DNA of 64,000 bases from positions 2,376,491 through 2,440,490 of the forward strand of contig OZ244816.1 in the NCBI GenBank assembly GCA_965220255.1, written 5' to 3'. This document shows positions 8,743-56,033 of the stretch, piece by piece (the first letter of the stretch is position 1; the number at the start of each line of letters is the position of its first letter). The position numbers were made by a program, and so were the translations under genes. The stretch is from Dehalococcoidia bacterium. Lineage in GTDB: Bacteria; Chloroflexota; Dehalococcoidia; Lucifugimonadales; VXLM01. The notes under the pieces were generated by a model that worked only from the letters and a program-made list of their open reading frames with translations, ran no database searches and was not told the origin of the DNA.

Positions 8743-8852
8743 TTCTTCATGTCCCAGACTCCCGCGTCGAGATGTTCTCACTACGAGACCTGCAATTCAA
8801 TGCTGACCTGCGCTTAATCCTTGCCTTCAATCAGATGCCGCCCCAAAAGGAT

Positions 8853-9590: not shown

Positions 9591-12017
9591 TCATCCACCT
9601 GGCGAGAGGCTCTGTCTCGTCTCCGCGCCCGCCTCGATCTTGTTCCAGCTATAGAGCATCGGGATGAAGCCGACATCCGCCCAGGTAGACGACTGGTCGG
9701 CGAAATGTGAACTCGCCGGATGCCCTGAGGCGCCAAACGGCACGATCCAACGCGAGTTGTCCCAGTCGCTCAGGTCGTAGATGTACCGCGCGACGGACGA
9801 CCCGGCGATGCCGAATGGCTCGGCGTGCGAGTAGCTTGCGGCCAGGGGCGTGTCGCCGTCTCCGCCGAGCGGCATCACGGGGCCTTCTAGTTCCTTCGCC
9901 CAAGAGTAGGCGTTGGACAGCCAGTGGGGCCGGTTCGTCCGGTGAATGGCTCCCCACGTCCACTTGCTCATGTCGTCGCCAAGCCGTTCCGACAGGTACT
10001 CGACCGCGCTCCCAAGCGCCTCTGCCATGAGCGAACTCCATGTCGCACCGTCTGGCAGGAACGACGAGTCGCCGGCATCCGCCATGCGAACGAACTGGGC
10101 CTTGAGCAGCGAGACGTGATGGGGCGCGCCGCGTCCGCCCGCGCCAAGCGCGTAGTCCGCCAGCGGTCCGAGAAGTCCTCTCAATATCGTGTCGTCGAGA
10201 TGGTGCCGGAATGTGCTGTAGAGGGTCGGGCCGACCGCGTCCACGTCCATGCTCCCATCCCACGCCGTGAGAATCTCCTTCGCCGCAGCACAACGCTCGT
10301 CGGCGGGCTCCACGTTTGCCAAGAGCTTACTGTAGGCAAGACCCGGGATAGACACCCTCTCGGCGTGAACGTCACCCATGTCCTCGACCGTCGCGCTCTG
10401 TATCTCGACTAGCCGGTCATAGATCCGTCGAGCGCGGTGCTCCGTCGCGTACTGGACACTGATGTAGTGGGGAAAATCGTCCCCTACCTGCTTGTTGTTC
10501 GCCGTGACGATGAACCCGTTCTCAGGATTCCGAATGCGCGGCATCTCCTCGAACGGGATGAACCCGTCCCACTCGTGCTCACCCGTCCAGCCCGGCACAG
10601 GCAGCCAGGCGTTGGCCATATTCCGTACCGGCACCTTCCCCCTAGTGAGGTACGCGATGTCCCCGTCGACGTCCCCGAAGACGTAGTTGTTGCACGGGTC
10701 TACCCATCCCCTCATCGCCTCATCCATCTCACCCACCGAGCTTGACCGTAATTGCAGCAGCAGCGCCTCGTGTGCGGTGTTCGCACCATCCGTGGCCGTG
10801 TACTTGAAGGCGATCGCCTTCCCGTTGCTCGGCTCCCCAACCACAATGGGTCCGTGATGAGTGGTCGTGACCTCGATCTCCACCGGCTCCGCGCCTCTCA
10901 CCTGGATTGTTTCTGGGTGAGTCTCAGCATGTCTCCAGCTTCCCTTGTACTCGTAGTGGAGCGTTCCCCCTCCCCTGAACGATTCGATGTACATGTCCTG
11001 GTAGTCCGCCGCCGCATGGGTTACGCACCATGCCACGCGGGCGTTGTGACCGAAATGAGGAAACGCCGGACACCCCGGAAACGACAGTCCCATCGCATCG
11101 AACTCGTCGCAGGCGATGTGGTTCTGGTAGTAGACGCTCGGAGTCTCGATGGGACGGTGGGGGTCTCCTGCTATCAGGGGCTTGCCGGACTCCGTTCTGC
11201 TCCCGTGTACGGCCCAGTTGTTGCTGCCTGAGTCGGCATCCGCCATCCCGTCCACGTACTCCGCGCCGGACACGTACTCGCTCAGCACGTCGTAGTTGTC
11301 GCCGAGGTACTCGGCACCCGGCGGAACGATCAGCAGTCCCCCTTCTTCATACTGGGGCATGAGCTCCGCCGCCCGCTCCGGACCGAGCGCGGCCACCATC
11401 TTTGCCCGCCACAGCTTGGCCTCCATGTGACCCATCAACACGTGCCGCGCCTTGAAGACCGCCAGACAGTCATGCGCCGTCCACGTCTCAGGTGACTCGC
11501 CGAGCATCTTGTACTCGACGGGAAGCGACTCTGTCGTATTGAGAAAGCCGTTCACGCCTTCCGCGTATGCCTCGAACATCGCCCGCGTCTCGTCGTTGAT
11601 GGCCGCATAGTCCCGATCAACCGACCGGCGAAGTTGAAACTTCCGCATGAGCACGTCCTGCTCGACCGCGCCCTCGCCCGCAAACTCGGCCCAACGCCCG
11701 TACGCCCATCGGCGGTCGTGGTCCATCTGGAAGAAACGGTCCTGCGCCGTGGCAAACCCCTGGCCGAAGAACGCGTCGTGCGCCGTCGTCGCCTTAACGT
11801 GCGGAATGCCGTAGGCGTCGCGGTATATGGTCACCGGGCCGTCCAGCTCACTGAACGACAGGCTGACATTGACATTAGGAACTGCGGCGTCAAGTGCGTT
11901 TTGGGATATGGTTCGGGTTTCGGACAAGGGACTATTCCTCACATAAGACTGCTGTGGAAGTGCAGTGTAGGAGCATAGCCCTTCCGCGTCAACGCAATAT
12001 ACGTCCCTCCGGCCCAA
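9591..12017 (-). CDS. Penicillin acylase / acyl-homoserine-lactone acylase family Ntn hydrolase
   Basis: YRDAYGIPHV, GFATAQDRFFQMD and the nucleophile region GSNNWAVHG...GKPLIAGDPH. The track start at 12017 is a TTG; GTG at 11942 is an alternative. No obvious signal peptide. Confidence 0.85.
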   Translation of the reverse strand: MGRRDVYCVDAEGLCSYTALPQQSYVRNSPLSETRTISQNALDAAVPNVNVSLSFSELDGPVTIYRDAYGIPHVKATTAHDAFFGQGFATAQDRFFQMDHDRRWAYGRWAEFAGEGAVEQDVLMRKFQLRRSVDRDYAAINDETRAMFEAYAEGVNGFLNTTESLPVEYKMLGESPETWTAHDCLAVFKARHVLMGHMEAKLWRAKMVAALGPERAAELMPQYEEGGLLIVPPGAEYLGDNYDVLSEYVSGAEYVDGMADADSGSNNWAVHGSRTESGKPLIAGDPHRPIETPSVYYQNHIACDEFDAMGLSFPGCPAFPHFGHNARVAWCVTHAAADYQDMYIESFRGGGTLHYEYKGSWRHAETHPETIQVRGAEPVEIEVTTTHHGPIVVGEPSNGKAIAFKYTATDGANTAHEALLLQLRSSSVGEMDEAMRGWVDPCNNYVFGDVDGDIAYLTRGKVPVRNMANAWLPVPGWTGEHEWDGFIPFEEMPRIRNPENGFIVTANNKQVGDDFPHYISVQYATEHRARRIYDRLVEIQSATVEDMGDVHAERVSIPGLAYSKLLANVEPADERCAAAKEILTAWDGSMDVDAVGPTLYSTFRHHLDDTILRGLLGPLADYALGAGGRGAPHHVSLLKAQFVRMADAGDSSFLPDGATWSSLMAEALGSAVEYLSERLGDDMSKWTWGAIHRTNRPHWLSNAYSWAKELEGPVMPLGGDGDTPLAASYSHAEPFGIAGSSVARYIYDLSDWDNSRWIVPFGASGHPASSHFADQSSTWADVGFIPMLYSWNKIEAGAETRQSLSPGG

Positions 12018-12073: not shown

Positions 12074-13249
12074 TTACTGCACGTACACTGCCAACATCCT
12101 GCAATCGTCCGGGTCGGCGCTCGCGGCCGTTTCCAATCTTACACAGGCATTGATGTTCAACTTAGTGCCGCTCGCTGCATTGGCGATCGCCCGCACTTCG
12201 ATCTCTCCTGCCGCGCCAATTGTGCGGCCGCCCACGACACAGGTGATCGTTCCCCCTGGAGTTTCGGTAAATTCACCCTTGCCGTCCTTTTCAAAACCCT
12301 CCAGCACGTTCGGATGAGTGCAGTTGGGATGGCTGGGATAGAGTCTCTCGTCGATAAACCGCAGAAGGGTAGTGGCCGTGAGCTCATCTGGCAAGAAGAT
12401 GTCGATTGCCACGTCTTGAACTGACTCGTCGGTTCCCCCAACAGTTTCGTGGTCAACGACGAATTGGAATGTTCCTCCGGGAGCAACCGTTTCTTCCTGA
12501 GTCTCAATGGCCAGACTGCGCGACACGAACGCCAGCGATGAGCAGTTCAGGGGTTCGCTTGTAATCGCACCGCCTGATCCTGTAACTGCCGAAAGCCTGG
12601 TGCAGTTGTTGGACCAGACGCCTTCATCTTTGGCGACGTTGTCGGTCCGGTATGTCGTGAGCCAGACATCGAGGTTGAGGGTTGTGCCGTCGGCCACGTC
12701 GCCGACTTCAGTCTCAAGAGTGATGGTCCCCTGGGCATTCGTCGCGCGCGTCCCGAGGAGGCAGATCATTGTGCCTCCGGGATCGCCCGTTATTGCTCCC
12801 GCTTCTTGACTCGCAAACCGCTCGAGCTTGCTCGCCTGGCTGCATGCGGGAGTCCCCGGCTCCACTCTCGTTGCGGTCAGTGCGTCAGGCAACTCGATAT
12901 CGACCGTCACCGCACCCGCTTCCGAACTTCCCTGGTTAACGTGGATGATCTTGAAGACTACGGTGTCGCCCTTGGAAATCGAAGTCTTGTCTGCCGTTAT
13001 CGTCGCCGTCATGTCGGGCGGGTCGCGGAAGTCGAGGTGTCCAACGTCGCGGGCAATCCACCAGACCAACCCGGCCAGGGTTGCGATTGAAAGGAAGGCC
13101 AAGATTGAAGTCCACCAGAATACGCCGCCGCGCTTCCTCCACCACACGAGGATACCGATCAGCCCACTGGGCTCCTCCTCGCTGAGCCGTAGCGGCTTTA
13201 TCGGTTCTCTGGATCCTGGACCTACTTCCGGTGTATAACGTTCCGCCAA
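12074..13249 (-). CDS. Membrane-anchored protein with two DUF11/CARDB-like beta-sandwich modules
   Basis: One TM helix, then PPDMTATIT. Two modules of the type TVVFKIIHVNQG...VTVDIELPDALTAT and FQFVVDHETVGG...VAIDIFLPDELTAT. Confidence 0.55.
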   Translation of the reverse strand: MAERYTPEVGPGSREPIKPLRLSEEEPSGLIGILVWWRKRGGVFWWTSILAFLSIATLAGLVWWIARDVGHLDFRDPPDMTATITADKTSISKGDTVVFKIIHVNQGSSEAGAVTVDIELPDALTATRVEPGTPACSQASKLERFASQEAGAITGDPGGTMICLLGTRATNAQGTITLETEVGDVADGTTLNLDVWLTTYRTDNVAKDEGVWSNNCTRLSAVTGSGGAITSEPLNCSSLAFVSRSLAIETQEETVAPGGTFQFVVDHETVGGTDESVQDVAIDIFLPDELTATTLLRFIDERLYPSHPNCTHPNVLEGFEKDGKGEFTETPGGTITCVVGGRTIGAAGEIEVRAIANAASGTKLNINACVRLETAASADPDDCRMLAVYVQ

Positions 13250-14111: not shown

Positions 14112-15614
14112 CTACGCCGCAAATGACTCGCGAATGTTCATGAGGTCACGTCGGAGACGTGTGTCCGCCTCGAGCTGGCGCTCGATCCTCCGGCAGGCAT
14201 GAATCACCGTCGAGTGGTCTCTCCCGCCCATGACCCGTCCGATGGTAGCCAGGGGCAGTTGCACTTCCTCTCGCAGCAGGTACATCGACACATGCCGCGC
14301 CTGCGCCGTCGTCCTGTCGCGTTTCTTCCCCTTCAGCGTGGACTTGTCGATGGAGAAGTACCGTGCGACCGCGCTCAGGACGTCCTCCTCGGATACTCTC
14401 CTGGCACTCTCTTTGAGCGAGTCTTCCAACGCCTGCTCCACCAGGTCCAAGTCAACGTCCGAATCGGAGGCTCCATTCAGAGACTTGTGGCCCAGCCCTG
14501 CATACGCCGCCACGATGTTCAAGCATCCTTCCAACTCCCGCACATTTCGTTGGACTCGCCCCGCAATGAACTCCAGCACGTTGTTGGGGAACTCCCTGTC
14601 GATCTGCTCAGCCTTCGACCTTAGTATCGCCAGGCGCGTCTCCAGGTCGGGTATCTGGATGTCAACGACCAGGCCTCCCGCGAGCCTGGAAGACACGCGG
14701 TCCTGCAGCAGCGAAAGCTCGCTTACCGGCCTGTCGCACGTTATGACGATCTGCTTGCCCGCCATGTGGAGCGCATTGAACGTGTGGAAGAACCCTTCCT
14801 GTGTCTGCTCCTTGCCGATGATGAACTGGATGTCATCTAGGAGCAACACGTCGGCGCTCCGGTACCTGTCCCGAAACTCCTCCGTCGTACCCTCCCGGAT
14901 AGCCCTGATGTACTCGTTCGTGAACTCCTCTGTCGTCGTGTAAAGGACATCGAGCCCAGCATCCTTAACCCTGTGGCCGATTGCGTGCATCAAATGTGTC
15001 TTGCCGAGACCAACCCCCGAGTAGATCACCAGCGGGTTATACACGAATCCGGGATTCTCGGATACCGCCACCGACGCCGCATGCGCCAGGTTGTTGGAGG
15101 TGCCGACGATGAAGTTCTCGAATCGATACCTTGCATTCAACCCCATCCGTCGGTAGGACGGTCGAGATGCGGCGCCGTCTTGATCCAGAGACATTCGAGG
15201 AGTTCCTGCATCGCCGGCGCCGTTGGTTCGGGGCATCGATCCTGCGTTCGACCGCACCTCTCCACCGACTTCAAACCGGATCTCCAGGTGCTCTCCGGTG
15301 ATCCCCTCGAGGCACCGGGAAATGAGGGCGTACATCCGCGTGTCGAGCATCTCGGAGACGAAGGCGTTTGGTGTCCTCACCTCGAGCGCGCCATCCTCCA
15401 CAGAAACGCCGGTCGTCCCCTTCAGCCAGGTCTCGTAGCTCGGCTTGGGTATCTGCAGTTGAAGCTCGCCGAGGACTGCGTCCCACATCTCGCGTGGGCT
15501 GATTTTGGCAGGTTTGTCGGTCACGTGTTGGGGTTCTGGGAAAGTGGTCATGGGAGTGCGGATTCTAACACGCCGTAAACCCTCTGGAGTGGAAGTCTGA
15601 GCGAGTTTCCCCAC
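14112..15614 (-). CDS. dnaA: Chromosomal replication initiator protein DnaA
   Basis: AAA+ Walker A GVGLGKTHL, box VII and sensor motifs, and the C-terminal DNA-binding signature GGRDHSTVIHACRRIE. Confidence 0.95.
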   Translation of the reverse strand: MGKLAQTSTPEGLRRVRIRTPMTTFPEPQHVTDKPAKISPREMWDAVLGELQLQIPKPSYETWLKGTTGVSVEDGALEVRTPNAFVSEMLDTRMYALISRCLEGITGEHLEIRFEVGGEVRSNAGSMPRTNGAGDAGTPRMSLDQDGAASRPSYRRMGLNARYRFENFIVGTSNNLAHAASVAVSENPGFVYNPLVIYSGVGLGKTHLMHAIGHRVKDAGLDVLYTTTEEFTNEYIRAIREGTTEEFRDRYRSADVLLLDDIQFIIGKEQTQEGFFHTFNALHMAGKQIVITCDRPVSELSLLQDRVSSRLAGGLVVDIQIPDLETRLAILRSKAEQIDREFPNNVLEFIAGRVQRNVRELEGCLNIVAAYAGLGHKSLNGASDSDVDLDLVEQALEDSLKESARRVSEEDVLSAVARYFSIDKSTLKGKKRDRTTAQARHVSMYLLREEVQLPLATIGRVMGGRDHSTVIHACRRIERQLEADTRLRRDLMNIRESFAA

Positions 15615-18608: not shown

Positions 18609-18712
18609 GGGCCTGTCGAAGGCTCGTCGCGCCACCCGTTCACCCCCGTATCAAGTACGGGGCAAGCTCTGAGCCTGCCGAATGGCGTCCCCTCGGTGAA
18701 ACCCCTCACACC
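18609..18712 (+). repeat. Family A dispersed repeat, long copy with an internal hairpin
   Basis: gttcacccccgtatcaagtacggggcaagctctgagcctgccgaatgg, plus a partial core at 18609-18622. The CCCCGTA-tcaag-TACGGGG stem-loop is present. Confidence 0.65.
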
Positions 18713-18718: not shown

Positions 18719-19864
18719 CTACATCTTTACAATGTCGTCGTCCACGTGCGTAGCCATCTGCCGCATGTACGCCTCACGGCCAACCTGCAGCTTCTTATAG
18801 TTCATGCGCGAGGCATGGGGAATCATCCGCAGGCTCCTGTTCTCAAGTGGGAACCGAACGGGCGCGTGTCCCTGTCGGTGCGACTCCCGCAGACCGATGG
18901 CAATTTCGAGGACCTTCCTGCCGTTGTCGCCGCTCCCCGGCGGGTCCATGTCCTGCTCAAGATAGTCCACGAACAGCGAAACGCTCGCCAGGTTCCTGTC
19001 TCCCGGCCACAGCCACCCGTCCGGCTCGCGGTGACTGCTTGTCTTTCCCACGACATTCGTCTCCGGGAACAGTCCCTCGATCTCCTCCAACGTCTCCCAC
19101 GAAGACCTGCCGCCGGGCGACCTGTACATATGCAGGACATCCGAGTTGCTGACGAACACGCCCTCGGTGCAGTTCACCTGGAATCCGGAGCCCCTCGCGT
19201 CCGGCTCGCGGCTGATGAACGCCTCGACCCCATTGACGAACCTCACGTATCCCGATCCCCCTTGGTCGTAGTCTTTCCACGGATCGTCGTCCACCCATCC
19301 AAGGCACCACGCCACGTCGGCGAACCCTGCAAACATCCTCATCAGGCTGAACTGCTGGATGCCGCCACCCGAAAGCTCCGTTCCCCCTCCACCATAGAAG
19401 TGAATACTCTTGACCTCGCCAATCTCCCCGTCGGCGATCATCTTCGCTGCCGTCTGGTAGGCCGGAAGGTTGATGTTCAGGTCGCCTGCGCCGATCCTGA
19501 CGCCGTTCGACCTGCAAGCTGCCACCATCGCGTCAGCTTCCTGAAGCGACGGCGCGAAAGGCTTCTCGCACAGGATTCCCTTCACCCCCGCCTCAGCGCA
19601 GCCGATCACGATACCGGGATTCGGCCCGACCGGCAGGATCGGCGCGGCGATGTCCACGCTCTCTTCCCGGAGCATTTCCTTATAGTCGGTATACCCTCGT
19701 GCCCCGAACCGCTTGCAGAACACCTCGAGGTTCTCCTCGTCGGTATCCGCCGCCGCCACGATCTCCGTCCGGGGATCGAGCCTGTACGCCCTCGCGTGCT
19801 GAGCACCCTTGCGACCAATCCCGATCATCCCCACTCGGTACATCGCGTTGCCTTCCTCCGTCAT
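18719..19864 (-). CDS. Gfo/Idh/MocA family NAD(P)-dependent oxidoreductase
   Basis: N-terminal Rossmann motif YRVGMIGIGRKG. ATG at 19864 is preceded by GAGGAGGAA. The track start at 19963 is probably too long. Confidence 0.8.
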   Translation of the reverse strand: MTEEGNAMYRVGMIGIGRKGAQHARAYRLDPRTEIVAAADTDEENLEVFCKRFGARGYTDYKEMLREESVDIAAPILPVGPNPGIVIGCAEAGVKGILCEKPFAPSLQEADAMVAACRSNGVRIGAGDLNINLPAYQTAAKMIADGEIGEVKSIHFYGGGGTELSGGGIQQFSLMRMFAGFADVAWCLGWVDDDPWKDYDQGGSGYVRFVNGVEAFISREPDARGSGFQVNCTEGVFVSNSDVLHMYRSPGGRSSWETLEEIEGLFPETNVVGKTSSHREPDGWLWPGDRNLASVSLFVDYLEQDMDPPGSGDNGRKVLEIAIGLRESHRQGHAPVRFPLENRSLRMIPHASRMNYKKLQVGREAYMRQMATHVDDDIVKM

Positions 19865-20020
19865 GCGTTCCTCCTCGCCGGCTCTTTCATTAGCCCGCGC
19901 AGTAGAATTCGCCCCAATTCTATACCCCACCCCTATGAATGTGAACGACAGCCCCCATCGCACCTACCCCCTCTTCTTCCGCCGTGAGAGATACTTGGGG
20001 TGAGGGTGCGGCCCCGTACC

Positions 20021-20150
20021 AACCCACACGTCATTCCCGCGGCGGCGAGAATCCAGCCCCCGAACCAACATCCCTTTCACCTCCGTATCAAGTACGGGGC
20101 CGCCCCTGAGCCCGTCGAAGGATTGCCCCCAGAGGTGAATCCCCGTCACC
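20021..20150 (+). repeat. Composite intergenic repeat (CACGTCATTCCC...GAGAATCCAG module plus family A), copy 1
   Basis: About 125 bp, nearly co-linear with 23375-23500. Abuts or overlaps the stop codon of the LRR gene ending at 20146. Confidence 0.75.
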
Positions 20151-23100
20151 CGTCCGACTCGACTTCCCCGCAGAACTCCATTTCACCGAAAGAGAGTGTG
20201 CTGCCCAGCTTCTTTAGGCTATCGGGAACACACCCCGTCAACTCGTTGCCCGAAAGGTCAAGCTCTATGCCTACCCGAAGGTTCCCGAACTCCGACGGAA
20301 TCTCGCCGCTGAGCTTGTTGTTCTCCAAATACAGTGAGGTGAGATTCGACAGTTTGCCCAACTCAGGCGGTATCGCCCCGGATAGCATGTTGTTCGATAG
20401 GTCGATATGCTTTGTGTCAGAGAGATTTCCCAGTTCAGGCGGAATCTCACCACTCAGTGAGTTCTCCCATAGGTTCAGTTCTTCGAGGCTGGAGAGCCTC
20501 CCCAACTCGGTGGGAATCTCACCGGTCAGCTTATTATGGTTGAGGATCAGCTCTTTCAGATTAAAGAGGCCCCCCAGTTCCGGCGGAATTTCTCCGCTCA
20601 ACGAGTTCTCGTGAACGTACAGATCGACCAGGTTGGAAAGCATTCCCAACTCCGCCGGAATTTCCCCCTTCAAGCCGTTTTCCGAAAGATACAATCCCGT
20701 CAGCCTCGATAGGTTCCCCAGTGCAGCCGGAATCTCGCCGCTCAAGGTGTTTCCCCAAAGATGTAGATCTGACAGATTGATGAGTTCACCCAGTTCCGGC
20801 GGAATCTCCCCGCTCAATTGGTTCTCTGAAAGGGACAGATCCTTCAAGTTGGAAAGGCTTCCAAGTTCCCCCGGAATCTCTCCACTCAGATCGTTCTCCC
20901 ACAGATACAGGGTCTCCAGTTTGGCAAGTCTGCCCAACTCAGGGGGTATTGCGCCCGTCAAACCGTTCTGCGATATGGCCAGGAACGTTAGATTCGCCAG
21001 TCTTCCCAGTTCCGGTGGAATTTCGCCGCCAAGCTCGTTGATTGACAGGTCCAGCCCGGTCAGATTTGATAGCTTGCCCAGCTCCGGCGGTACCCCTCCG
21101 CTTAGCCGGTTCTGCCAGAGGTACAGCTCCTTCAAGTTGGTGAGTTCCACCAACTCCAACGGAATCTTCCCTTCCAGCCAGTTCTCATTAAGGTGCAGGT
21201 ACTGAAGTTTGGTGAGGTTGCCCAGCTCTGGCGGGATCTCTCCACCCAGGAGGTTATCGTCCAAAAACAACTCGGTGAGGTTGGAGAGCTCTCCCAGTTC
21301 CGCCGGAATCTCGCCCGTCAGCCGGTTGTTCCATAGGCCCAGTATCGTCAATTCAGAGAGGTTGCCCAACTCTGCCGGTATCTGTCCCCTCAGCAAGTTT
21401 CCCTGCAGGTCCAACTCTGTCAACGTGGTTAGCATCCCCAGGTTCTCCGGGATCGAACCCTTCAGGCGGTTCTCGCCCAGGGACAGCTTTATGATGTTTC
21501 CGCTCTCGTCCGTCACGACGCCGTACCATTCGCTGACCGGAGCGTCGCTCAACCAGTGGTCGTTGTTCTCCCAATTCGGACCGTCCGTCGCGTTGTAGAG
21601 TGTGACGAGCGCTTCCTTTGAATCGTCCGCGACCTGATTGGGCGCGCTCTGCGCATCGCCGGTGTCACAGGCAGGAATGCCTGGATTGCCGATGTCCGCA
21701 AGTCTGGCCGGTGCGCACCCGGTCAAATTGTTTCCCCAGAATTCCGCCTCCGACAGGTGTTCCAAGTTGCCCAGCCCTGCCGGAATCTCTCCACTCAAGC
21801 TGTTGTCCTCAAGGTGCAGTCCGGTTAGGTATGTGAGCCTGGCCAGTTCCAATGGGATCTCTCCCGTCAGGTCATTGCGGGACAAGTCCAGCCACTCTAA
21901 GAGCGAAATCTTGCCCAGCTCCGGCGGGATATCGCCGGACAATTGGTTGCCCCAGGCACTCAACCAACTTAGCCGGGAGAGATTGCCCAATTCAGGTGGA
22001 AGCGGTCCGCTCAATCGGTTTTGGCTAAGGTATAGCCATTGGAGGAAGAAAAGACTCCCCAGTTCAACGGGTATTTCGCCGCTTAAGTCATTGGTGTGGA
22101 GGGCCAGTCCTACCAGCCTGGAAAGCTCGCCCAGTTCAGGCGGTATCCGCCCACTCAGGCTGTTCTCTGAAAGGTCGAGCCTCCTCAGATTGCGGAGATA
22201 ACCAAGTTCGGCAGGGATTTCTCCCCTCAACCCATTGTCGGCAAGCGTTAGCCATTCGACCTCTCCCTGGGAGTCAACCGTTATCCCATACCATTCGCCA
22301 AGGGGCGCATCACTCAACCAGTTGTCGTTGTTCTTCCAGTTCGGGCCGTCCGTGGACTCGTACAGCGCTGCCAGGGCATCCATCGGATCGCAGGTTCCCT
22401 GGACGAGGATATCCAAGTCGGCAGCGCTCTCCGGTATGCACCCCGTCAAATTGTTCTCCGAAAGGTCCAGAATTACCAGATTGGAAAGATCCACCAACTC
22501 CATCGGTACGCTTCCGGTGAACCCGTTCCCCGAAAGGTCGAACAACTCCAGGCTGGTGAGATCACCCAATTCGGGAGGTATCTCTTCCAGCAGCCAGTTC
22601 TTCGATAGATCCAACTCCGTCAGGGATCTGAGTTTGCCAAGTTCCGGCGGAATTTCCCCGGTCAACTGGTTCTCTGAAAGATCGAGTTTCGTCAATTCGG
22701 CGAGACGACCCAACTCCCGTGGTATCTCACCAATCAGCCTGTTCTCAGATAGGTCGAGCACGGCCAGACTGGAAAGGGTGCCAAGCTCGGAAGGTATCAG
22801 CCCCAGTAGCCAATTCCCCCGAAGCTCCAGCACCCTCAACCTCGATAGCTGACCCAATTCCGGCACGATATTCCCGGTCATCTCGTTCTCGGTGAGCACC
22901 AGTTCAGCCACCCTGCCACTCTCGTCGGTCGTAACCCCGTGCCACTCACCGATTGGCCTATCGCTCAGCCAGTTGTCGCTCCTGGTCCAGTCCTCCCCAC
23001 CAGCGGACTCGTACAGCAAAACGAGAGCATCCCTGTCGGGACTCGTCGCAAACGTAGTGGGGACGGCCGTCGGCTCAGGGGTAGACGTGGGCACTACCGG

Positions 23101-23298
23101 GGTACTCGGTACAGACGTCGCCGTTCCTCCCGCCGCTACTGCCTTCTCCCCCGAACGAACAACTGTGGGCTCGGGACCAGGATCCCCACACGCGACCAGC
23201 ACCACCGCAAACAACATCGCCAACATCAACACAATGCTTCTCGCTGTCGTCCCCATTGCAGTGAACCCCAAGACATCCTTCATACAGACAGCACTCAT
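20146..23298 (-). CDS. Modular leucine-rich-repeat lipoprotein, plant-type 24-residue LRRs (33 units in 3 modules)
   Basis: Lipobox LVAC-GDP after a hydrophobic signal, then a Pro/Thr-rich linker. Three cap motifs (ALxxLYxxxxGxxWxxxDNWLSDxPxxEW(H/Y)G(V/I)T) are each followed by exact 24-aa units LxxLxLxxNxLxGEIPxELGxLxx. Start may be Met1 (23298) or Met15. Confidence 0.9.
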   Translation of the reverse strand: MSAVCMKDVLGFTAMGTTARSIVLMLAMLFAVVLVACGDPGPEPTVVRSGEKAVAAGGTATSVPSTPVVPTSTPEPTAVPTTFATSPDRDALVLLYESAGGEDWTRSDNWLSDRPIGEWHGVTTDESGRVAELVLTENEMTGNIVPELGQLSRLRVLELRGNWLLGLIPSELGTLSSLAVLDLSENRLIGEIPRELGRLAELTKLDLSENQLTGEIPPELGKLRSLTELDLSKNWLLEEIPPELGDLTSLELFDLSGNGFTGSVPMELVDLSNLVILDLSENNLTGCIPESAADLDILVQGTCDPMDALAALYESTDGPNWKNNDNWLSDAPLGEWYGITVDSQGEVEWLTLADNGLRGEIPAELGYLRNLRRLDLSENSLSGRIPPELGELSRLVGLALHTNDLSGEIPVELGSLFFLQWLYLSQNRLSGPLPPELGNLSRLSWLSAWGNQLSGDIPPELGKISLLEWLDLSRNDLTGEIPLELARLTYLTGLHLEDNSLSGEIPAGLGNLEHLSEAEFWGNNLTGCAPARLADIGNPGIPACDTGDAQSAPNQVADDSKEALVTLYNATDGPNWENNDHWLSDAPVSEWYGVVTDESGNIIKLSLGENRLKGSIPENLGMLTTLTELDLQGNLLRGQIPAELGNLSELTILGLWNNRLTGEIPAELGELSNLTELFLDDNLLGGEIPPELGNLTKLQYLHLNENWLEGKIPLELVELTNLKELYLWQNRLSGGVPPELGKLSNLTGLDLSINELGGEIPPELGRLANLTFLAISQNGLTGAIPPELGRLAKLETLYLWENDLSGEIPGELGSLSNLKDLSLSENQLSGEIPPELGELINLSDLHLWGNTLSGEIPAALGNLSRLTGLYLSENGLKGEIPAELGMLSNLVDLYVHENSLSGEIPPELGGLFNLKELILNHNKLTGEIPTELGRLSSLEELNLWENSLSGEIPPELGNLSDTKHIDLSNNMLSGAIPPELGKLSNLTSLYLENNKLSGEIPSEFGNLRVGIELDLSGNELTGCVPDSLKKLGSTLSFGEMEFCGEVESDG

Positions 23299-23326
23299 CC
23301 TTTAGGCACCCTAACTCATGGGAGGC

Positions 23327-23335
23327 AGTATACCA
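23327..23335 (-). promoter_or_regulatory. Candidate extended -10 promoter element TGGTATACT for the first LRR gene
   Basis: The same 9-mer in the same sequence context (gcagtatacca) lies upstream of both LRR genes. Confidence 0.4.
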
Positions 23336-23374
23336 AGCAAAACGACCTAACCACTCGATCATCCCGGAACCCCA

Positions 23375-23500
23375 CCCCACACGTCATTCCCCCAGCGGCG
23401 AGAATCCAGTCCCCAAACCAAGGACCCGTTCACCCCCGTATCAAGTACGGGGCCGGCTCTGAGCCTGTCGAAGGGTCTTCACCAGAGGTGAATCCCCACA
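23375..23500 (+). repeat. Composite intergenic repeat (CACGTCATTCCC...GAGAATCCAG module plus family A), copy 2
   Basis: Co-linear with 20021-20150. Lies immediately 3' of the second LRR gene. Confidence 0.75.
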
Positions 23501-23531
23501 CCATAATTTCCGTGAAGGAAGGAGTCCCCCA

Positions 23532-25919
23532 TCACCCGTCCGACGCGTCCTTCCCGCAGAACTCCATTTCACCGAAATTAACCCCGCTGCCCAAATTCCG
23601 CAGACTATCGGGAACGCACCCTGAAAACTCGTTGCCTGCCGCCTCAAACGTTATCCCCCAGGTCAAGTTGCCAAGCTCCGGCGGTATCTCACCACTTAGC
23701 ATGTTGTCCCACAGATAGAGGACATTCAGGTTCGACAGATTGCCCAACTCAGGCGGAATCTCCCCCGTCAGCTTATTCCGCGAAAGGCTCAATTCCTCCA
23801 AGTTGGTGAGGTTGCCCAGTTCTGCCGGAATCTCACCGCTCAACAAGGTCTTCCACAGGTACAGGAACTTGAGATTGGTCAGCCTCCCCAACTCAGGTGG
23901 TATCTCCCCGGTCAATTCGTTCTCTGAGATCGAAAGACGTGTCAGGTTTGAGAGGGTGCTCAGTTCAACTGGAATCTCACCGCTCAGATTGTTATCTGAG
24001 AGTTCCAATATTGTCAGATTGGACAGTTGGGCCAGTTCCGGCGGGACCTCTCCACTCACCATGTTGCCCCACAAGTAGAGTTCCTTCAGGTTGGCAAGGT
24101 TCCCCAACTTAGGAGAAATCTCACCGCTCAGTTGGTTTTCGCTCAGGTACAGATATGCCAGCTCGGTTAGATCGGCCAGTTCCGTCGGTATTGCCCCGGT
24201 GAGCTGGTTGTCCCAGAGAGACAGCACAGCTAAGTTTGAGAGGCGCGACAGCTCCGGCGGTATCTCCCCGCTCAGGTCATTTTCATTAAGGTAGAGGTAT
24301 TCGAGGTTGGAGAGGAGTCCCAATTGCGGCGGTATGGCCCCGAATAGATTATTCCCCGACAGTGTCAGTTCCGTCAGATTAGTGAGCTTGGCAAGCTCTA
24401 CCGGAATCTCGCCGTCCAGCTGGTTCTTCCTCAGGCCAAGTTCCGTCAGGTTGGACAGTCGCGCCAGCTCCGGTGGTATCTCACCACCCAGCCAGTTGTT
24501 GTTAAAGTACAGGGACTCCAGCTTTCCCAGGTTGCTTAGTTCCGGGGGGATTTCACCGACCAACCCGTTGTCAAAGAGATTCAGGATTTTCAGGTTGGCA
24601 AGGTTGCCCAGTTCCGGCGGTATCTCCCCGCTCAACAGGTTCTCGTTCAGGTACAGGTCGGTCAGATTGGAGAGCTTTCCCAGTGCCGCCGGAATCTCGC
24701 CCGAGAATTGGTTGTTCCATAGGCCCAGTATTGTCAATTCAGAGAGGTTTCCCAACTCCGCCGGAATCGGCCCCCTCAACCAGTTTCCCTGCAGGTCCAA
24801 CTCTGTCAGTGTGGTCAACAGCCCCAGTTCCGCGGGGATCGACCCCCTCAGGCGGTTCTCGCCGAGAGACAGCTTGATGACGTTTCCATCCGCGTCAGTC
24901 ACGACCCCGAGCCACCAATCGAGCGGCCTGTCGCTCAACCAGTTGTCGTTGTTTTCCCATTTCTCACCCTCCGTGGCATGGTAGAGCGCCGTTAGCGCAT
25001 CCAGGGCGGCGCACGACGGCCCGACAAGGTCGATGAGATGCTCGAGACCCTCCGAAGAGCATCCGCTAAGCTGCAGGCCCTCAAGTCCCAGATCCGTCAG
25101 TTGGGAGAGTTGCCCCAGTTCCCGGGGTATCTCTCCCCTCAGGTTGGTCTTCGAGAGGTCCAGCTTCCTTAACTTGGAAAGGCTGCCCAACTCCGGTGGA
25201 ATCGTCCCCTGCAGACCGTTCTCCGAAAGATCAAGCTCCTCCAGGCTGCCGAGACGGCCCAACTCAGGCGGTATCTCACTGATCAACCTGTTGTCGTGGA
25301 GGTCCAGCAATTCCAGCTTGGCGAGGTTGCCCAACTCCGGCCGTATCTCGCCAATCAGGAGGTTATCCGAAAGGTCGAGCACAACAAGGTTCGAAAGCTC
25401 GCCTAGCTCCTTCGGGATCAGCCCTACCAGCCAGCCCCCACGAAACTCTAACTTTGTCAGTTTGGACAGTTGGCCTAGCTCCTCTGGGATATTCCCCGCC
25501 ACCTTGTTGTCGACGATGACCAATTCAATAACCCGGCCATCGTCGTCGGTCGTAACCCCGTACCACTCACCGATCGGCCTGTCGCTCAACCAGTTGTCGC
25601 TATTCTTCCAATTCTCCCCACCCGCCGACTCGTAAAGCGCCACCAGCGCGTCCCTGTCCAGAAGCGTCGAATCTACAGCGGGCGTCGCCGTCGGCTCCGG
25701 CGTAGACGTGGGCACTACCGTGGGACTCGAAACAGACGTCGCCGTCGGCTCCGGCGCAACTGTCTCCGCCGTGGGAACAGCGGTAGCCTCCGGACGAGGA
25801 TCGCCACACGCGACAAGCGTCGCCGTCACGCACCCCATTGCCAACGTCAACGCGATGCCTCTCGCCTTCGCCCCCATAGTAGTGGACCCCAAGATAATCC
25901 TCGTGCCGTAATCACTCAT
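23532..25919 (-). CDS. Modular leucine-rich-repeat lipoprotein, plant-type 24-residue LRRs (25 units in 2 modules); paralog of 20146-23298
   Basis: Lipobox LVAC-GDP, Pro/Thr linker, two cap motifs and 7+18 exact 24-aa units. C-terminal tail GEMEFCGKDASDG matches the paralog's GEMEFCGEVESDG. Confidence 0.9.
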   Translation of the reverse strand: MSDYGTRIILGSTTMGAKARGIALTLAMGCVTATLVACGDPRPEATAVPTAETVAPEPTATSVSSPTVVPTSTPEPTATPAVDSTLLDRDALVALYESAGGENWKNSDNWLSDRPIGEWYGVTTDDDGRVIELVIVDNKVAGNIPEELGQLSKLTKLEFRGGWLVGLIPKELGELSNLVVLDLSDNLLIGEIRPELGNLAKLELLDLHDNRLISEIPPELGRLGSLEELDLSENGLQGTIPPELGSLSKLRKLDLSKTNLRGEIPRELGQLSQLTDLGLEGLQLSGCSSEGLEHLIDLVGPSCAALDALTALYHATEGEKWENNDNWLSDRPLDWWLGVVTDADGNVIKLSLGENRLRGSIPAELGLLTTLTELDLQGNWLRGPIPAELGNLSELTILGLWNNQFSGEIPAALGKLSNLTDLYLNENLLSGEIPPELGNLANLKILNLFDNGLVGEIPPELSNLGKLESLYFNNNWLGGEIPPELARLSNLTELGLRKNQLDGEIPVELAKLTNLTELTLSGNNLFGAIPPQLGLLSNLEYLYLNENDLSGEIPPELSRLSNLAVLSLWDNQLTGAIPTELADLTELAYLYLSENQLSGEISPKLGNLANLKELYLWGNMVSGEVPPELAQLSNLTILELSDNNLSGEIPVELSTLSNLTRLSISENELTGEIPPELGRLTNLKFLYLWKTLLSGEIPAELGNLTNLEELSLSRNKLTGEIPPELGNLSNLNVLYLWDNMLSGEIPPELGNLTWGITFEAAGNEFSGCVPDSLRNLGSGVNFGEMEFCGKDASDG

Positions 25920-25946
25920 GGTGTAAGTGACTTACTAGCGGCAGGC

Positions 25947-25955
25947 AGTATACCA
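25947..25955 (-). promoter_or_regulatory. Candidate extended -10 promoter element TGGTATACT for the second LRR gene
   Basis: Identical 9-mer to 23327-23335, at a similar distance from the start codon. Confidence 0.4.
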
Positions 25956-26022
25956 CGAAAACCGGCTCATGCATCTTCATGGAAGGGCGGCAAGAGATAG
26001 CCGGCTCAAGGCCCCGGAAACG

Positions 26023-26048
26023 AAAAAGGGCCCCGCGAAGGGGCTCTT
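26023..26048 (-). terminator. Candidate intrinsic terminator on the minus strand
   Basis: A 9-bp GC-rich stem (aagggcccc / ggggctctt, one G-U pair) with a gcgaa loop. On the minus strand it is followed by TTTTTCGTTT. Confidence 0.4.
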
Positions 26049-26071
26049 CTCAATTCCGCATGTCTATCTTA

Positions 26072-26215
26072 TCAGATTGCATCCAAAACTGTCAAGTAAA
26101 TATTACTAATAACGTCGAATAATACTTCATAACAGTCGTTATAGTGTGCAGTAATACAAATAAAGTATATCATATACCACAATAAAGAACAATATTGTAC
26201 GAATAACGTCTCCAT
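26072..26215 (-). CDS. Candidate 47-aa hydrophobic, Cys/aromatic-rich small protein encoded in the AT-rich island
   Basis: My own translation (below the ORF-track cutoff): METLFVQYCSLLWYMIYFICITAHYNDCYEVLFDVISNIYLTVLDAI. An open frame in about 28% GC DNA, followed 24 nt later by the terminator at 26023-26048. No obvious SD. Confidence 0.25.
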   Translation of the reverse strand: METLFVQYCSLLWYMIYFICITAHYNDCYEVLFDVISNIYLTVLDAI

Positions 26216-26256
26216 GTTATGGTGGTTGTCTATCCCCGCGCCCGAAAGGAGACATA

Positions 26257-28017
26257 TTGACAGCCACCTCTACCACAAATAGCTACACCCAAACCCTCGT
26301 CATCCGCGAAGTTCGCAAACAGTGGCGCACGCTCGCGTTCGTCGTCGTCCTCATGTTCCTCGGGACAGCCTCCGCGCTTGTCACGCCGTTGCTCCTCAGA
26401 GAGTTGATCGACCACGCCATTCCCAGTGGCGACACCGCCATGATCCTCGCGCTCGTCGTGGCGATGACCCTGCTCCCGGTTGTCGACGTGGGGCTGGGGC
26501 TCGTGCGTAACTACGCCCGCGCTACCGTGGGCGAGGCTGTCACTCGCCGTCTTCGCACAGACCTGTTCAACCACCTCATCCAAGCCCGCCTCGACGACAT
26601 CGAACGCACAAGACTGGGGCACATCGTCACGGTCATCACGAGCAGTTGCGGCCGTGTGGGGGAGATGTTCGTCGCCCAGACCGTCGTGCAATCGATATAT
26701 CACTCGATGCTGGTTTTCGTGACCGCCGGGATCATGTTCTCCCTCAACTGGAAGCTGGCGCTCATCACACTGCTGGCCTTCCCTCCCTCGTACCTCCTCG
26801 CCCGCGTTGCCGGAAGCCGAGAACGACGCCTGCACGCCGAGCAAATGGACATCCTCTCCTCCGGCCAGTCGTACATCACGGAAGTCTTCGACAACATCAA
26901 GACCGTCAAGTCGTTCACCGGCGAGAGCCGCGAGACGGCCTGGTGGGAGGGGTGGACGCGCCGCAACTGGCGAAACAAGGCCCGCATGACGGCGCACCAC
27001 GATCTCTTCCGCTTCGGCTTCTGGGTCGCCATTCAGAACGTCGTGCGCGGCCTCATCTTCGGCTACGGCGCGTTCGAGGTCGTCAACGGTCGCGCGACGG
27101 TCGGCGATCTCGTGGCGTTTCTCGCCTACTTGCCCGGCCTTTACGAGTCCGTCAGAAGAGTCCTCGACTTCATCACCGTGGGCGAGTCTACCAAGGCCTC
27201 CTCTGATCGGATCGACGAACTCATGGCCCTTCCCACTGAGGGTACGTCCGGCGTCCGAGAGCCGGTCACGAAGAATGGCGGACCTTCTGTGGAATTCTCC
27301 AACGTCAGCTTCCGCTATGCGCGTGAAGGATTCGGAATCGAAAACTTCAGCTTTCGTGCGAACGCTGGCGAGTTCGTCGGCATCGTCGGCCCGACGGGAG
27401 GTGGCAAGAGCACCGTTCTCGACCTCGTGAAGGGCTTCTACGAACCGTTGAATGGCCGTATCCTCATCAATGGCCAAGACCTACTCGACCTCCCCATCGG
27501 CGCGGTGCGACGGCACATATCCGCCGTCCCGCAGGATGCCTGGCTATGGAACGACACCGTTCTCGCCAACATCATCTACCCCGAAAAGCAACCTGATATG
27601 GCCCTCGTCGAGCAGGTTGTCCATGACGCCCAGCTTGCAGAGTTCATCGAGTCACTCCCGAGCGGACTCGACGAAAGACTCGGACCGAAGGGCCTCGACC
27701 TCTCCGGCGGCGAGCGCCAGCGTATCGCCATCGCTCGCGCCCTCTACAGGAAGGCCGGACTCGTCCTCCTCGACGAGCCGACCTCCGCCCTCGACGCCCG
27801 CACCGAGTTCCATCTCACCTCCGCGCTCGACACCCTCCGCGAACGCAGCACCCTCATCGTCGTCGCCCACCGCCTCAAGACCGTCATCACCGCCGACAAA
27901 ATCCTCGTCATCGACGGCGGCCGCATCGTCGAGTCCGGCTCGCCCGAAGAGCTCAAGCGCGGTTCGGGCCTGTTCGCTATGATGTATGAGATGCAGTCGC
28001 TTGAAGTAAAGCGGTAG
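26257..28017 (+). CDS. ABC exporter, fused permease/ATPase (MsbA/type IV exporter-like half transporter)
   Basis: Six-TM N-terminal domain, Walker A GPTGGGKST, signature LSGGERQRIAIARAL and Walker B LVLLDEPTS. TTG start at 26257 is preceded by AAAGGAG. Confidence 0.9.
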   Translation: MTATSTTNSYTQTLVIREVRKQWRTLAFVVVLMFLGTASALVTPLLLRELIDHAIPSGDTAMILALVVAMTLLPVVDVGLGLVRNYARATVGEAVTRRLRTDLFNHLIQARLDDIERTRLGHIVTVITSSCGRVGEMFVAQTVVQSIYHSMLVFVTAGIMFSLNWKLALITLLAFPPSYLLARVAGSRERRLHAEQMDILSSGQSYITEVFDNIKTVKSFTGESRETAWWEGWTRRNWRNKARMTAHHDLFRFGFWVAIQNVVRGLIFGYGAFEVVNGRATVGDLVAFLAYLPGLYESVRRVLDFITVGESTKASSDRIDELMALPTEGTSGVREPVTKNGGPSVEFSNVSFRYAREGFGIENFSFRANAGEFVGIVGPTGGGKSTVLDLVKGFYEPLNGRILINGQDLLDLPIGAVRRHISAVPQDAWLWNDTVLANIIYPEKQPDMALVEQVVHDAQLAEFIESLPSGLDERLGPKGLDLSGGERQRIAIARALYRKAGLVLLDEPTSALDARTEFHLTSALDTLRERSTLIVVAHRLKTVITADKILVIDGGRIVESGSPEELKRGSGLFAMMYEMQSLEVKR

Positions 28018-41661: not shown

Positions 41662-41662
41662 C

Positions 41663-42547: not shown

Positions 42548-42569
42548 GTTTGGCCCTCCACGATTCATT

Positions 42570-56022: not shown

Positions 56023-56033
56023 GAAGGTCACGT

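What the first reader, a model, noticed from the sequence alone, without database searches (positions are those of the whole stretch)
20146..25919. Tandem pair of modular plant-type LRR lipoproteins forming a duplicated cassette with shared promoter and 3' repeat
Two adjacent minus-strand genes encode proteins of 1050 and 795 aa. Each has a lipoprotein signal (…LVAC-GDP), a Pro/Thr-rich stalk and then LRR modules. A module consists of a ~45-aa cap (ALxxLYxxxxGxxWxxxDNWLSDxPxxEW(H/Y)G(V/I)T) and strictly 24-residue units LxxLxLxxNxLxGEIPxELGxLxx. It closes with a Cys-containing unit (LTGC…). I count 7+8+18 = 33 units in the first gene and 7+18 = 25 in the second. The longer protein therefore looks like the shorter one with an extra 8-unit module. 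Both end in GEMEFCG(E/K)xxSDG. The repeat consensus and length match the plant-specific LRR class found in receptor kinases and PGIPs, not the usual 20-22-residue bacterial class. The cap recalls the plant LRR N-terminal cap without its Cys pair. Each gene has the same TGGTATACT element upstream and the same ~125-bp composite repeat at its stop codon, which points to a recent cassette duplication. These eukaryote-like, surface-tethered binding proteins could mediate host, prey or particle recognition. Their ligand and role are unknown.
Basis: partly seen in the sequence, partly recalled or inferred. Interest (0 to 1): 0.7.

Follow-up and report, generated by a model that had tools for sequence, protein, structure and literature searches.

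The report
Paired plant-type LRR surface lipoproteins
Two neighbouring genes of a probably sponge-associated Dehalococcoidia bacterium encode membrane-anchored surface proteins built from plant-type leucine-rich repeats; they are real and neatly modular, but belong to a very large, already noted and still uncharacterised class of "eukaryote-like" proteins of sponge symbionts.

Summary
ORFs 20146-23298(-) (1050 aa) and 23532-25919(-) (795 aa) each have a lipobox (LVAC), a Pro/Thr stalk, and modules of cap + strictly 24-residue LRRs (7+8+18 and 7+18). Each module ends in a Cys pair.

The repeats are the plant-specific LRR class. The best solved relatives are plant receptor-kinase ectodomains (GSO1, E 3e-147). 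AlphaFold models (pLDDT 93 and 91) show separate solenoids with β-β-helix units.

The genes are bacterial. dnaA lies 4.5 kb away, and the window is from a Dehalococcoidia (SAR202-like) chromosome whose more distant relatives (84-85% DnaA identity) include sponge MAGs. Relatives carry 0, 1 or 2 genes at this site.

The "recent cassette duplication" reading fails. The 3' repeat is a dispersed intergenic element, and paralogue dS (0.6-1.9) exceeds orthologue dS (~0.45). The genes instead evolve as mosaics, through gene conversion, unit-number change and faster change at exposed positions (ω 0.40 versus 0.06).

The cap alone finds 11,531 protein clusters, with up to 20 caps per protein. LRR genes in sponge SAR202 have been reported before.

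Verdict: a new member of a known kind. The likely role is surface ligand or host binding; the ligand is unknown.

The parts
20146..23298 (-). LRR lipoprotein A, 1050 aa: signal + lipobox, stalk, three cap+LRR modules (7, 8, 18 units)
   Evidence: AlphaFold model pLDDT 91.2 with three solenoids
23532..25919 (-). LRR lipoprotein B, 795 aa: signal + lipobox, stalk, two cap+LRR modules (7, 18 units)
   Evidence: AlphaFold model pLDDT 93.0 with two solenoids
23188..23298 (-). A signal peptide with lipobox L-V-A-C (Cys37 codon 23188-23190). The start could instead be Met15.
   Evidence: lipobox Cys conserved in orthologues
25806..25919 (-). B signal peptide with lipobox L-V-A-C (Cys38 codon 25806-25808)
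23041..23187 (-). A Pro/Thr/Ala-rich stalk (residues 38-86)
25662..25805 (-). B Pro/Thr/Ala/Glu-rich stalk (residues 39-86)
22390..23040 (-). A module 1: cap + 7 LRR units + Cys287/Cys303
21667..22389 (-). A module 2: cap + 8 LRR units + Cys528/Cys544. This is the extra module, and units 4-8 are 96-99% nt identical to L002.
20149..21666 (-). A module 3: linker, cap + 18 LRR units + Cys1023/Cys1043 + tail GEMEFCGEVESDG
25011..25661 (-). B module 1: cap + 7 LRR units + Cys287/Cys303
23535..25010 (-). B module 2: cap + 18 LRR units + Cys768/Cys788 + tail GEMEFCGKDASDG
23327..23335 (-). TGGTATACT, an extended -10-like element 28 nt upstream of the A start codon
   Evidence: Function as a promoter is inferred, and the consensus scan found no matching -35.
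25947..25955 (-). TGGTATACT, an extended -10-like element 27 nt upstream of the B start codon
   Evidence: conserved in L001
20019..20144 (-). Composite intergenic repeat directly after the A stop codon. It is a copy of a dispersed REP-like element.
23372..23497 (-). Composite intergenic repeat after the B stop codon, 86% identical to the copy after A

Best explanation
These are two paralogous, separately promoted genes for surface-displayed binding proteins. The organism is a Dehalococcoidia (SAR202-like) bacterium, probably sponge-associated.

Proposed steps:
1. Each precursor is exported, and the lipobox Cys is lipidated. This tethers the protein to the outer face of the cytoplasmic membrane. 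It is inferred from sequence; Chloroflexota are generally single-membrane bacteria, which is established knowledge and was not tested here.
2. A Pro/Thr-rich stalk of about 45 residues holds the rest of the protein away from the membrane (inferred).
3. Two (B) or three (A) independently folded solenoids follow, like beads on a string. Each has a helical N-cap, then 7, 8 or 18 plant-specific-type 24-residue LRRs, then a Cys pair that probably forms a capping disulfide. The fold is shown by the models; the disulfide is inferred.
4. The concave β-sheets carry the variable residues, which include many Tyr and Trp, and bind an extracellular ligand. The most likely ligand is a sponge host or matrix protein or glycan. 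This would place the proteins among the 'eukaryotic-like proteins' thought to mediate symbiont recognition or evasion of phagocytosis (inferred; no ligand is known).
5. The locus diversifies by paralogue gene conversion, gain or loss of whole units, patchy recombination, and faster amino-acid change at exposed positions (shown by comparison with three sister genomes).
For: Architecture and repeat class:
- The repeat consensus LxxLxLxxNxL(S/T)GEIPxELGxLxx equals the published plant-specific consensus (PMC2946307).
- The models show β-β-helix units, as described for that class (PMC5976695).
- Best solved relatives by sequence are plant LRR receptor kinases: GSO1 3e-147, RGFR 8e-146, FLS2 9e-134. 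The first bacterial entry is Leptospira LIC11098 at 8e-46. The fold search agrees.

Separate solenoids:
- pLDDT drops below 50 only at the inter-module linkers. pTM is 0.72 for B and 0.57 for A.

Bacterial chromosomal origin:
- dnaA and housekeeping genes surround the locus.
- DnaA is 94-95% identical to Dehalococcoidia MAGs. Relatives at 84-85% include MAGs from Ircinia ramosa and Aplysina aerophoba.
- Independent assemblies, including a complete 4.1 Mb chromosome (L009), carry orthologues with the same 7+8+18 layout.
- The best database homologues are bacterial (650-900 bits, against 495 bits for the best plant structure). They include the sponge symbionts Ca. Poriferisodalis and Caldilineaceae SB0662.

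Diversification:
- The site holds 0, 1 or 2 genes among relatives.
- The long module has 16 units in L009 against 18 here.
- Paralogue gene conversion over 9 units in L009, with dS 0.27.
- Patchy orthologue identity, 0.67-0.99 per unit.
- ω is 0.20-0.27 for the LRR genes against 0.02-0.19 for neighbours at similar dS.
- ω is 0.40 at concave x positions against 0.06 at scaffold positions.

Literature:
- LRR genes were found in sponge SAR202 and Caldilineae genomes (PMC6306507).
- LRR is enriched in sponge symbionts (PMC11706023).
Against: - There are no expression, localisation or ligand data.
- Lipoprotein processing rests on a pattern match only. SignalP and LipoP were not available, and lgt/lspA were not sought.
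- ω stays below 1 everywhere, so positive selection is not shown. The estimate is crude: Nei-Gojobori, three partly non-independent pairs.
- The sponge habitat of this particular genome is inferred from relatives, and the three closest genomes have no host stated.
- About 45 of the 120 best homologues fuse the same modules to proteases. A few others fuse them to solute-binding domains. That pattern fits a substrate-capture role as well as a host-recognition role.
Confidence: 0.6

Rival explanations
1. Substrate-capture modules for feeding. The LRR solenoids bind proteinaceous or glycan polymers (dissolved or particulate organic matter, sponge matrix) at the cell surface and hand them to proteases and transporters. 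Host signalling is not involved.
For: - About 45 of the 120 best homologues fuse the same cap+LRR modules to trypsin-like protease plus SH3 domains.
- Other homologues fuse them to subtilase, reprolysin-like metalloprotease, SBP_bac_5 or DctP solute-binding domains.
- One homologue sits next to a secreted trypsin-PPC protein.
- An ABC transporter gene is the conserved divergent neighbour of gene B, here and in L001.
- Bayer et al. credit sponge Chloroflexi symbionts with the genomic potential for DOM degradation (PMC6306507 abstract).
Against: - Genes A and B carry no catalytic or solute-binding domain.
- The neighbouring ABC protein is the fused membrane+ATPase exporter type, not an importer with a binding protein.
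- Copy-number variation and mosaic evolution fit a recognition interface better than a generic polymer binder.
Confidence: 0.22
2. Recent cassette duplication. One gene with its promoter and 3' repeat was copied in tandem not long ago, and one copy then gained an 8-unit module.
For: - Homologous upstream element and 86%-identical 126-nt downstream composite.
- Modules correspond as A1~B1 and A3~B2.
- L001 has only the B gene.
Against: - A-versus-B dS is 0.57-0.71 in the most similar patches and 0.9-1.9 in the rest. Orthologue dS is 0.43-0.49.
- Both A and B have separate orthologues in L002 and L009.
- The 3' repeat is dispersed through this and other Dehalococcoidia genomes, and is arranged differently at the L002 orthologues.
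- No remnant of gene A is present in L001.
Confidence: 0.08
3. Eukaryotic (plant or algal) DNA: contamination, a chimeric assembly, or a very recent transfer from a eukaryote.
For: - The closest solved structures are all plant receptor kinases.
- The LRR genes have somewhat lower GC3 (0.69-0.72 against ~0.75-0.82) and a lower codon-usage correlation (0.63-0.65) than their neighbours.
Against: - Bacterial lipobox signals, no introns, and tight bacterial gene context next to dnaA.
- The same genes lie in the same place in three independent Dehalococcoidia assemblies.
- Thousands of bacterial homologues score higher than plant proteins.
- The plant LRRNT_2 cap model does not match.
- The compositional shift is mild, and repeat and amino-acid bias can explain it.
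Confidence: 0.03

Closest known systems
Plant LRR receptor-kinase ectodomains and PGIP (plant-specific LRR class)
   Same: - 24-residue consensus LxxLxLxxNxL(s/t)GxIPxxLGxLxx with β-β-helix units.
- The N-cap ends in W....W.GV.
- Best sequence and fold matches: GSO1, RGFR1, FLS2, PEPR1, MIK2, BRI1.
   Different: - No Cys pairs in the N-cap, and no LRRNT_2 match.
- No transmembrane helix, kinase or island domain.
- Bacterial lipoprotein anchor.
- Several capped solenoids per chain instead of one.
- The convex-side motif GEIPPELG is far more uniform.
LRR 'eukaryotic-like proteins' of sponge symbionts (SAR202, Caldilineae, Acidimicrobiia, cyanobacteria, Thaumarchaeota)
   Same: - Same type of organism and probably the same habitat.
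- Same Pfam families used to define the class (PF00560, PF12799, PF13855).
- The best database hits include Ca. Poriferisodalis and Caldilineaceae SB0662.
   Different: In the papers read here that class is defined only by Pfam domain counts. The module grammar, lipid anchor, locus variability and mosaic evolution shown here do not appear in the passages read.
Xanthomonas type III effectors XopAC/AvrAC, XopAE, XopL
   Same: Bacterial proteins whose LRRs give the best NCBIfam alignments to A and B (E 1e-76 to 1e-24).
   Different: - Scores of 84-256 bits lie far below the curated cut-offs of 450-600.
- Those proteins are injected effectors with added enzymatic domains (my knowledge).
- A and B have Sec/lipoprotein signals and no such domains.
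Listeria internalins and Leptospira LRR lipoproteins (LIC11098, LIC10831, LIC_11051)
   Same: Surface-anchored bacterial LRR proteins that bind host molecules. The Leptospira proteins are the best bacterial solved structures (E 8e-46 and 7e-37).
   Different: - A different repeat class and length: internalins are 22-residue SDS22-like (PMC2946307).
- Different anchors and accessory domains.
- NCBIfam scores of 31-183 bits against cut-offs of 1000-1600.

Membership tests
Plant-specific (PS) LRR class | Repeat length 23-25 with consensus LxxLxLxxNxL(t/s)GxIPxxLGxLxx (PMC2946307) | tested here: met
   All 58 units are exactly 24 residues. Occupancy of the 58 units: L1 50, L4 54, L6 49, N9 54, L11 52, G13 56, I15 50, P16 54, L19 56, G20 43, L22 56.
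Plant-specific (PS) LRR class | Structural unit β-β-3_10 helix, i.e. a second β-strand after the concave strand (PMC5976695) | tested here: met
   DSSP on the AlphaFold models shows E-E-H per unit in many repeats. An example is E294-296, E301-304, H308-312. These are predicted, not solved, structures.
Plant LRR receptor ectodomain (LRRNT_2 cap + LRR + TM/kinase) | N-terminal cap matching Pfam LRRNT_2 (PF08263). The paired cysteines and the transmembrane/kinase part are named from my knowledge. | tested here: not met
   No LRRNT_2 hit for any of four caps at E<=10. The caps contain no Cys. No TM or kinase domains were found. Only the W..x.W.GV motif aligns to GSO1.
Bacterial lipoprotein | Lipobox [LVI][ASTVI][GAS]C after a hydrophobic stretch and a positively charged N-region | tested here: met
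   LVAC at Cys37 (A) and Cys38 (B), preceded by a hydrophobic run and by Arg/Lys. The Cys is conserved in the L001, L002 and L009 orthologues. This is a pattern test only. Lipidation itself is not testable here.
Sponge-symbiont LRR eukaryotic-like proteins | Protein with PF00560/PF12799/PF13855 domains, encoded by a sponge-associated prokaryote (definition used in PMC11706023) | tested here: inconclusive
   The Pfam criterion is met. The host criterion is inferred. Relatives at 84-85% DnaA identity are MAGs from I. ramosa and A. aerophoba. The host of this genome and of its three closest relatives is not stated.
XopAC / XopAE / XopL type III effectors | NCBIfam equivalog or subfamily score above the curated cut-off | tested here: not met
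   A: 256/248/122 bits; B: 178/176/84 bits; cut-offs 600/450/500.
Class 1 internalins; LIC_11051 fibronectin-binding family | NCBIfam score above the curated cut-off | tested here: not met
   31-183 bits against cut-offs of 1000-1600.

The most novel reading that the evidence does not exclude
The capped 24-residue 'plant-specific' LRR module may not be plant-specific at all. It may be an old and hugely diversified bacterial building block: 11,531 clusters carry the Cys-free cap, with up to 20 caps per protein. Plant receptor ectodomains could then derive from it rather than the reverse. In sponge symbionts, tandem paralogues such as A and B would use unit shuffling and gene conversion as a diversification engine for a host-facing recognition surface.
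Probability: 0.15. Interest if true: 0.65.

Novelty: new member of a known kind. Interest (0 to 1): 0.3.

Why it matters
LRR proteins are counted as 'eukaryotic-like' symbiosis factors in sponge microbiomes. In the papers read here they are treated only as Pfam domain counts, and no ligand is named. This locus offers a clean, well-modelled pair whose variation between sister genomes can be followed directly. That variation includes 0, 1 or 2 genes, 16 or 18 units, and gene-conversion tracts. The pair could therefore serve as a test case for binding assays and for asking whether symbiont surfaces co-evolve with host recognition. It also adds to the evidence that the 'plant-specific' LRR class is abundant in bacteria, which bears on the direction of transfer between plants and bacteria.

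Tried and rejected
- The exact-sequence look-up of protein B found nothing on record.
- The listing of cluster members gave no organism names.
- The look-up of encoding contigs on two homologues gave context but no taxonomy.
- Rfam found nothing in the whole window at gathering score, nor in 25900-26300 at E<=1.
- There are no tRNAs in the window.
- No inverted repeats of 25 nt or more lie in 19800-26400, so there is no sign of an invertible switch.
- RNA folding of the 3' repeat copies is no more stable than shuffles, with z from -0.65 to +0.76. Only a short conserved hairpin, CCCCGTA-cttga-TACGGGG, stands out.
- The consensus scan found no -35/-10 pair at the TGGTATACT sites and no intrinsic terminator after either LRR gene.
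- The afdb50 fold library was unavailable.
- A literature search for 'Poriferisodalis' found nothing.
- The dN/dS values for the GFO gene against L002 and L009 (dN > 2) are frame-registration artefacts of my script and are disregarded.
- I did not scan metagenome or viral collections, because contig names would not have given habitat.
Full report
**What is there**

The six-frame ORF list gives two adjacent minus-strand ORFs, 20146-23298 (1050 aa, here A) and 23532-25919 (795 aa, here B). I anchored on the LxxLxLxxNxL motif and printed the proteins in 24-residue register. The result is uninterrupted blocks of 7, 8 and 18 units in A and of 7 and 18 units in B, with no indel.

- Each block is preceded by a cap of about 45 residues (…ALxxLYxxxxGxxWxxxDNWLSDxPxxEWxGV…).
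- Each block closes with a unit that carries a Cys.
- All cysteines of the mature proteins occur as pairs at module ends: A 287/303, 528/544 and 1023/1043; B 287/303 and 768/788.
- Both proteins begin with a hydrophobic signal ending in LVAC|GDP. This passes a lipobox pattern test, and A and B are the only ORFs in the window with such a signal.
- A Pro/Thr/Ala-rich stretch of about 45 residues follows the signal.
- Both proteins end in GEMEFCG(E/K)xxSDG.
- The mature proteins are strongly acidic, with 157 D+E against 55 K+R in A.
- Pfam confirms LRR_1/4/8/14 at E 1e-43 to 1e-100.

**Repeat class and fold**

The per-position consensus is LxxLxLxxNxL(S/T)GEIPxELGxLxx. This is the published plant-specific consensus of 23-25 residues (PMC2946307).

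A sequence search of all solved structures is headed only by plant LRR receptor kinases: GSO1 3e-147, RGFR1 8e-146, FLS2 9e-134, PEPR1, MIK2, HSL1 and BRI1. The first bacterial entry is Leptospira LIC11098 at 8e-46.

AlphaFold models built on alignments with database homologues are confident. B residues 80-795 give pLDDT 93.0 and pTM 0.72. A residues 80-1050 give pLDDT 91.2 and pTM 0.57.

- They show β-β-helix units, the hallmark of this class (PMC5976695).
- Each module is preceded by a helical cap.
- Confidence falls below 50 only at the chain ends and in the inter-module linkers.
- The modules are therefore predicted to be separate solenoids whose mutual orientation is undefined.
- A Foldseek search of the PDB again returns plant ectodomains.

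The cap does not match Pfam LRRNT_2, even at E<=10. Its second half does align with the W…C.W.GV.C motif of GSO1, with the cysteines replaced. 'Plant cap without the Cys pair' is a fair description.

**Whose genes they are**

- dnaA lies at 14112-15614(-), 4.5 kb from A.
- The rest of the window encodes ordinary bacterial metabolism and transport.
- DnaA finds Dehalococcoidia/SAR202 genomes only.
- The three closest genomes are 94-95% identical in DnaA (L001, L002 and L009; L009 is a complete 4.1 Mb chromosome).
- A second tier at 84-86% includes SB0661_bin_13 and APA_bin_48.
- MAGs carrying these prefixes are attributed to the sponges Ircinia ramosa and Aplysina aerophoba (PMC11706023).
- The few named protein homologues are also from sponge symbionts: Ca. 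Poriferisodalis and Caldilineaceae SB0662.
- Contamination or a chimera with eukaryotic DNA is excluded.
- A mild compositional shift (GC3 0.69-0.72; codon-usage correlation 0.63-0.65) is all that sets the genes apart from their neighbours.

**Comparison with sister genomes**

Flanking genes are collinear and 90-99% identical in protein. At the LRR site the genomes differ.

- L002 and L009 carry both genes. A is 84% and 74% identical; B is 83% and 71% identical.
- L001 carries only B (82%). Where A would be, it has 1.1 kb of repeat-laden non-coding DNA.
- The 84-86% tier has no LRR gene there, and synteny ends exactly at this point.
- Architecture is conserved (7+8+18 and 7+18), except that the long module of L009-B has 16 units.

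Unit-by-unit matrices show mosaicism.

- In the window, only units 1-4 and unit 18 of the long modules of A and B correspond one to one. The interior is scrambled.
- In L009, units 1-9 of A and B are 19-23/24 identical, with dS 0.27. This is a recent paralogue gene-conversion tract.
- Orthologue identity per unit ranges from 0.67 to 0.99. Units 4-8 of A module 2 are 96-99% nt identical to L002, which is higher than any other orthologous stretch compared. This suggests recombination between lineages.

Rates were estimated crudely with Nei-Gojobori.

| Comparison | Value |
|---|---|
| ω, LRR genes | 0.20-0.27 |
| ω, neighbouring genes | 0.02-0.19 |
| dS, LRR orthologues (window vs L001/L002) | 0.43-0.49 |
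| dS, neighbouring genes (window vs L001/L002) | 0.21-0.52 |
| ω, concave x positions 2, 3, 5, 7, 8 | 0.40 |
| ω, positions 21, 23, 24 | 0.38 |
| ω, scaffold positions | 0.06 |

Exposed positions are relaxed or diversifying, but ω never exceeds 1.

**The 'cassette' claim**

TGGTATACT occurs twice in the window, at 27-28 nt upstream of each ATG, against 0.06 expected by chance. It is conserved upstream of L001-B and L009-A and is degenerate in L002-A. It reads as an extended -10 (TGnTATAnT). Promoter function is inferred, and the consensus scan found no matching -35.

The 126-nt downstream composite is 86% identical between the two genes. However, its first half recurs after the neighbouring oxidoreductase gene (18634-18709) and at 37211-37261. 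Pieces of it also occur in eight other Dehalococcoidia loci, after unrelated genes. At the L002 orthologues the halves are rearranged or partial. It is a dispersed REP-like intergenic element, not a cassette mark.

Paralogue dS is 0.57-0.71 in the best-conserved patches and 0.9-1.9 elsewhere. That exceeds orthologue dS, and both paralogues have their own orthologues. The duplication is therefore older than these species.

The module correspondence A1~B1 and A3~B2, with A2 extra, is supported.

**How common the family is**

- The full-length search saturated its cap, with 7993 of 8000 scored candidates at E<=1e-10.
- The best hits are 33-53% identical, bacterial, and encoded on contigs of up to 5.9 Mb.
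- The 50-residue cap alone finds 11,531 clusters at E<=0.001 and 3,488 at E<=1e-10 among 1.84 billion representatives. Up to 20 caps occur in one protein.
- A motif count on the new hits listed shows mostly 3-5 caps per protein and modules of roughly 2-38 units. About a fifth have lipobox-like N-termini.
- About 45 of the 120 best full-length hits fuse the modules to trypsin-like protease and SH3 domains. Others carry fn3, subtilase, metalloprotease or solute-binding domains.
- The modular grammar is thus a property of the whole family.

**What is already known**

- Bayer et al. reported LRR genes in sponge SAR202 and Caldilineae genomes, and describe LRR proteins as postulated mediators of host-microbe interaction (PMC6306507).
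- LRR enrichment in sponge symbionts is documented (PMC11706023).
[quoted passage not shown] Sci. 5:580) is cited in PMC9471246 and PMC13618415. It is not held in the library, and I did not read it.

**Conclusion**

A and B are real, correctly described, surface-anchored multi-solenoid LRR proteins of the plant-specific class. They sit in a probably sponge-associated Dehalococcoidia chromosome, at a variable locus that evolves by recombination.

- The most likely function is binding of an external, probably host-derived, ligand on the concave faces.
- A substrate-capture role is the main rival.
- The ligand is unknown.
- This is a new member of a known and very large kind, not a new kind.

Noticed in passing
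window 18634-18709(-), 20019-20144(-), 23372-23497(-), 37211-37261(-); also L001, L002, L003, L022, L038, L040, L045, L063: A dispersed REP-like intergenic repeat. Its core is CCTTCGACAGGCTCAGAGCNGGCCCCGTACTTGATACGGGGGTGAACGGG, with the hairpin CCCCGTA-cttga-TACGGGG. A second half-element is GGATTCTCGCCGC..GGGAATGAC. It lies just downstream of unrelated genes across Dehalococcoidia genomes. It gives spurious ORF translations (…RIKYGA.SEPVEG…). Its overall fold is no more stable than that of shuffled sequence.
   Followed up: partly
window 26030-26095(-), within the AT-rich ABC/LRR-B intergenic region 25920-26256: A near-consensus sigma-70 promoter (TTGACA-18 nt-TAAGAT with TG) is followed after about 20 nt by a GC hairpin plus T-run (GCCCCTTCGCGGGGC CCTTTTT). 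Both are conserved in L001. This could be a ~40-nt small RNA or a terminator-controlled leader upstream of gene B. There is no Rfam match.
   Followed up: partly
window 55908-57856(+): A type II restriction-modification pair sits between ilvC and leuA: a D12-class N6-adenine methyltransferase and a NotI-family endonuclease with overlapping stop and start. The island has low GC (0.54) and the most deviant codon usage in the window (correlation 0.49). It is probably horizontally acquired.
   Followed up: partly
window 14112-15614(-): dnaA is here, so the window lies next to the probable replication origin. Cumulative GC skew falls monotonically across the window, with no turning point.
   Followed up: no
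window 40753-49792(-): Two very large FtsX-type permeases (1127 and 1230 aa) lie upstream of two ABC ATPase genes. Most of each permease has no Pfam match.
   Followed up: no
window 21667-22389(-) versus L002: Units 4-8 of the 8-unit middle module of gene A are 96-99% identical in nucleotides to L002. Most other units of the same gene are about 67-96%. This suggests a recent recombination between lineages confined to this module.
   Followed up: partly
L001 4496-5612: In L001, the place where gene A sits in the window holds 1.1 kb of non-coding DNA made largely of dispersed repeats. One of them matches window 63566-63657.
   Followed up: partly
window 6277-8781(-) and 9591-12017(-): A fused DAO + GCV_T protein (sarcosine/dimethylglycine-oxidase-like) and a penicillin-amidase family protein lie near dnaA. 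Next to them is a DUF11 repeat protein (12074-13249).
   Followed up: no
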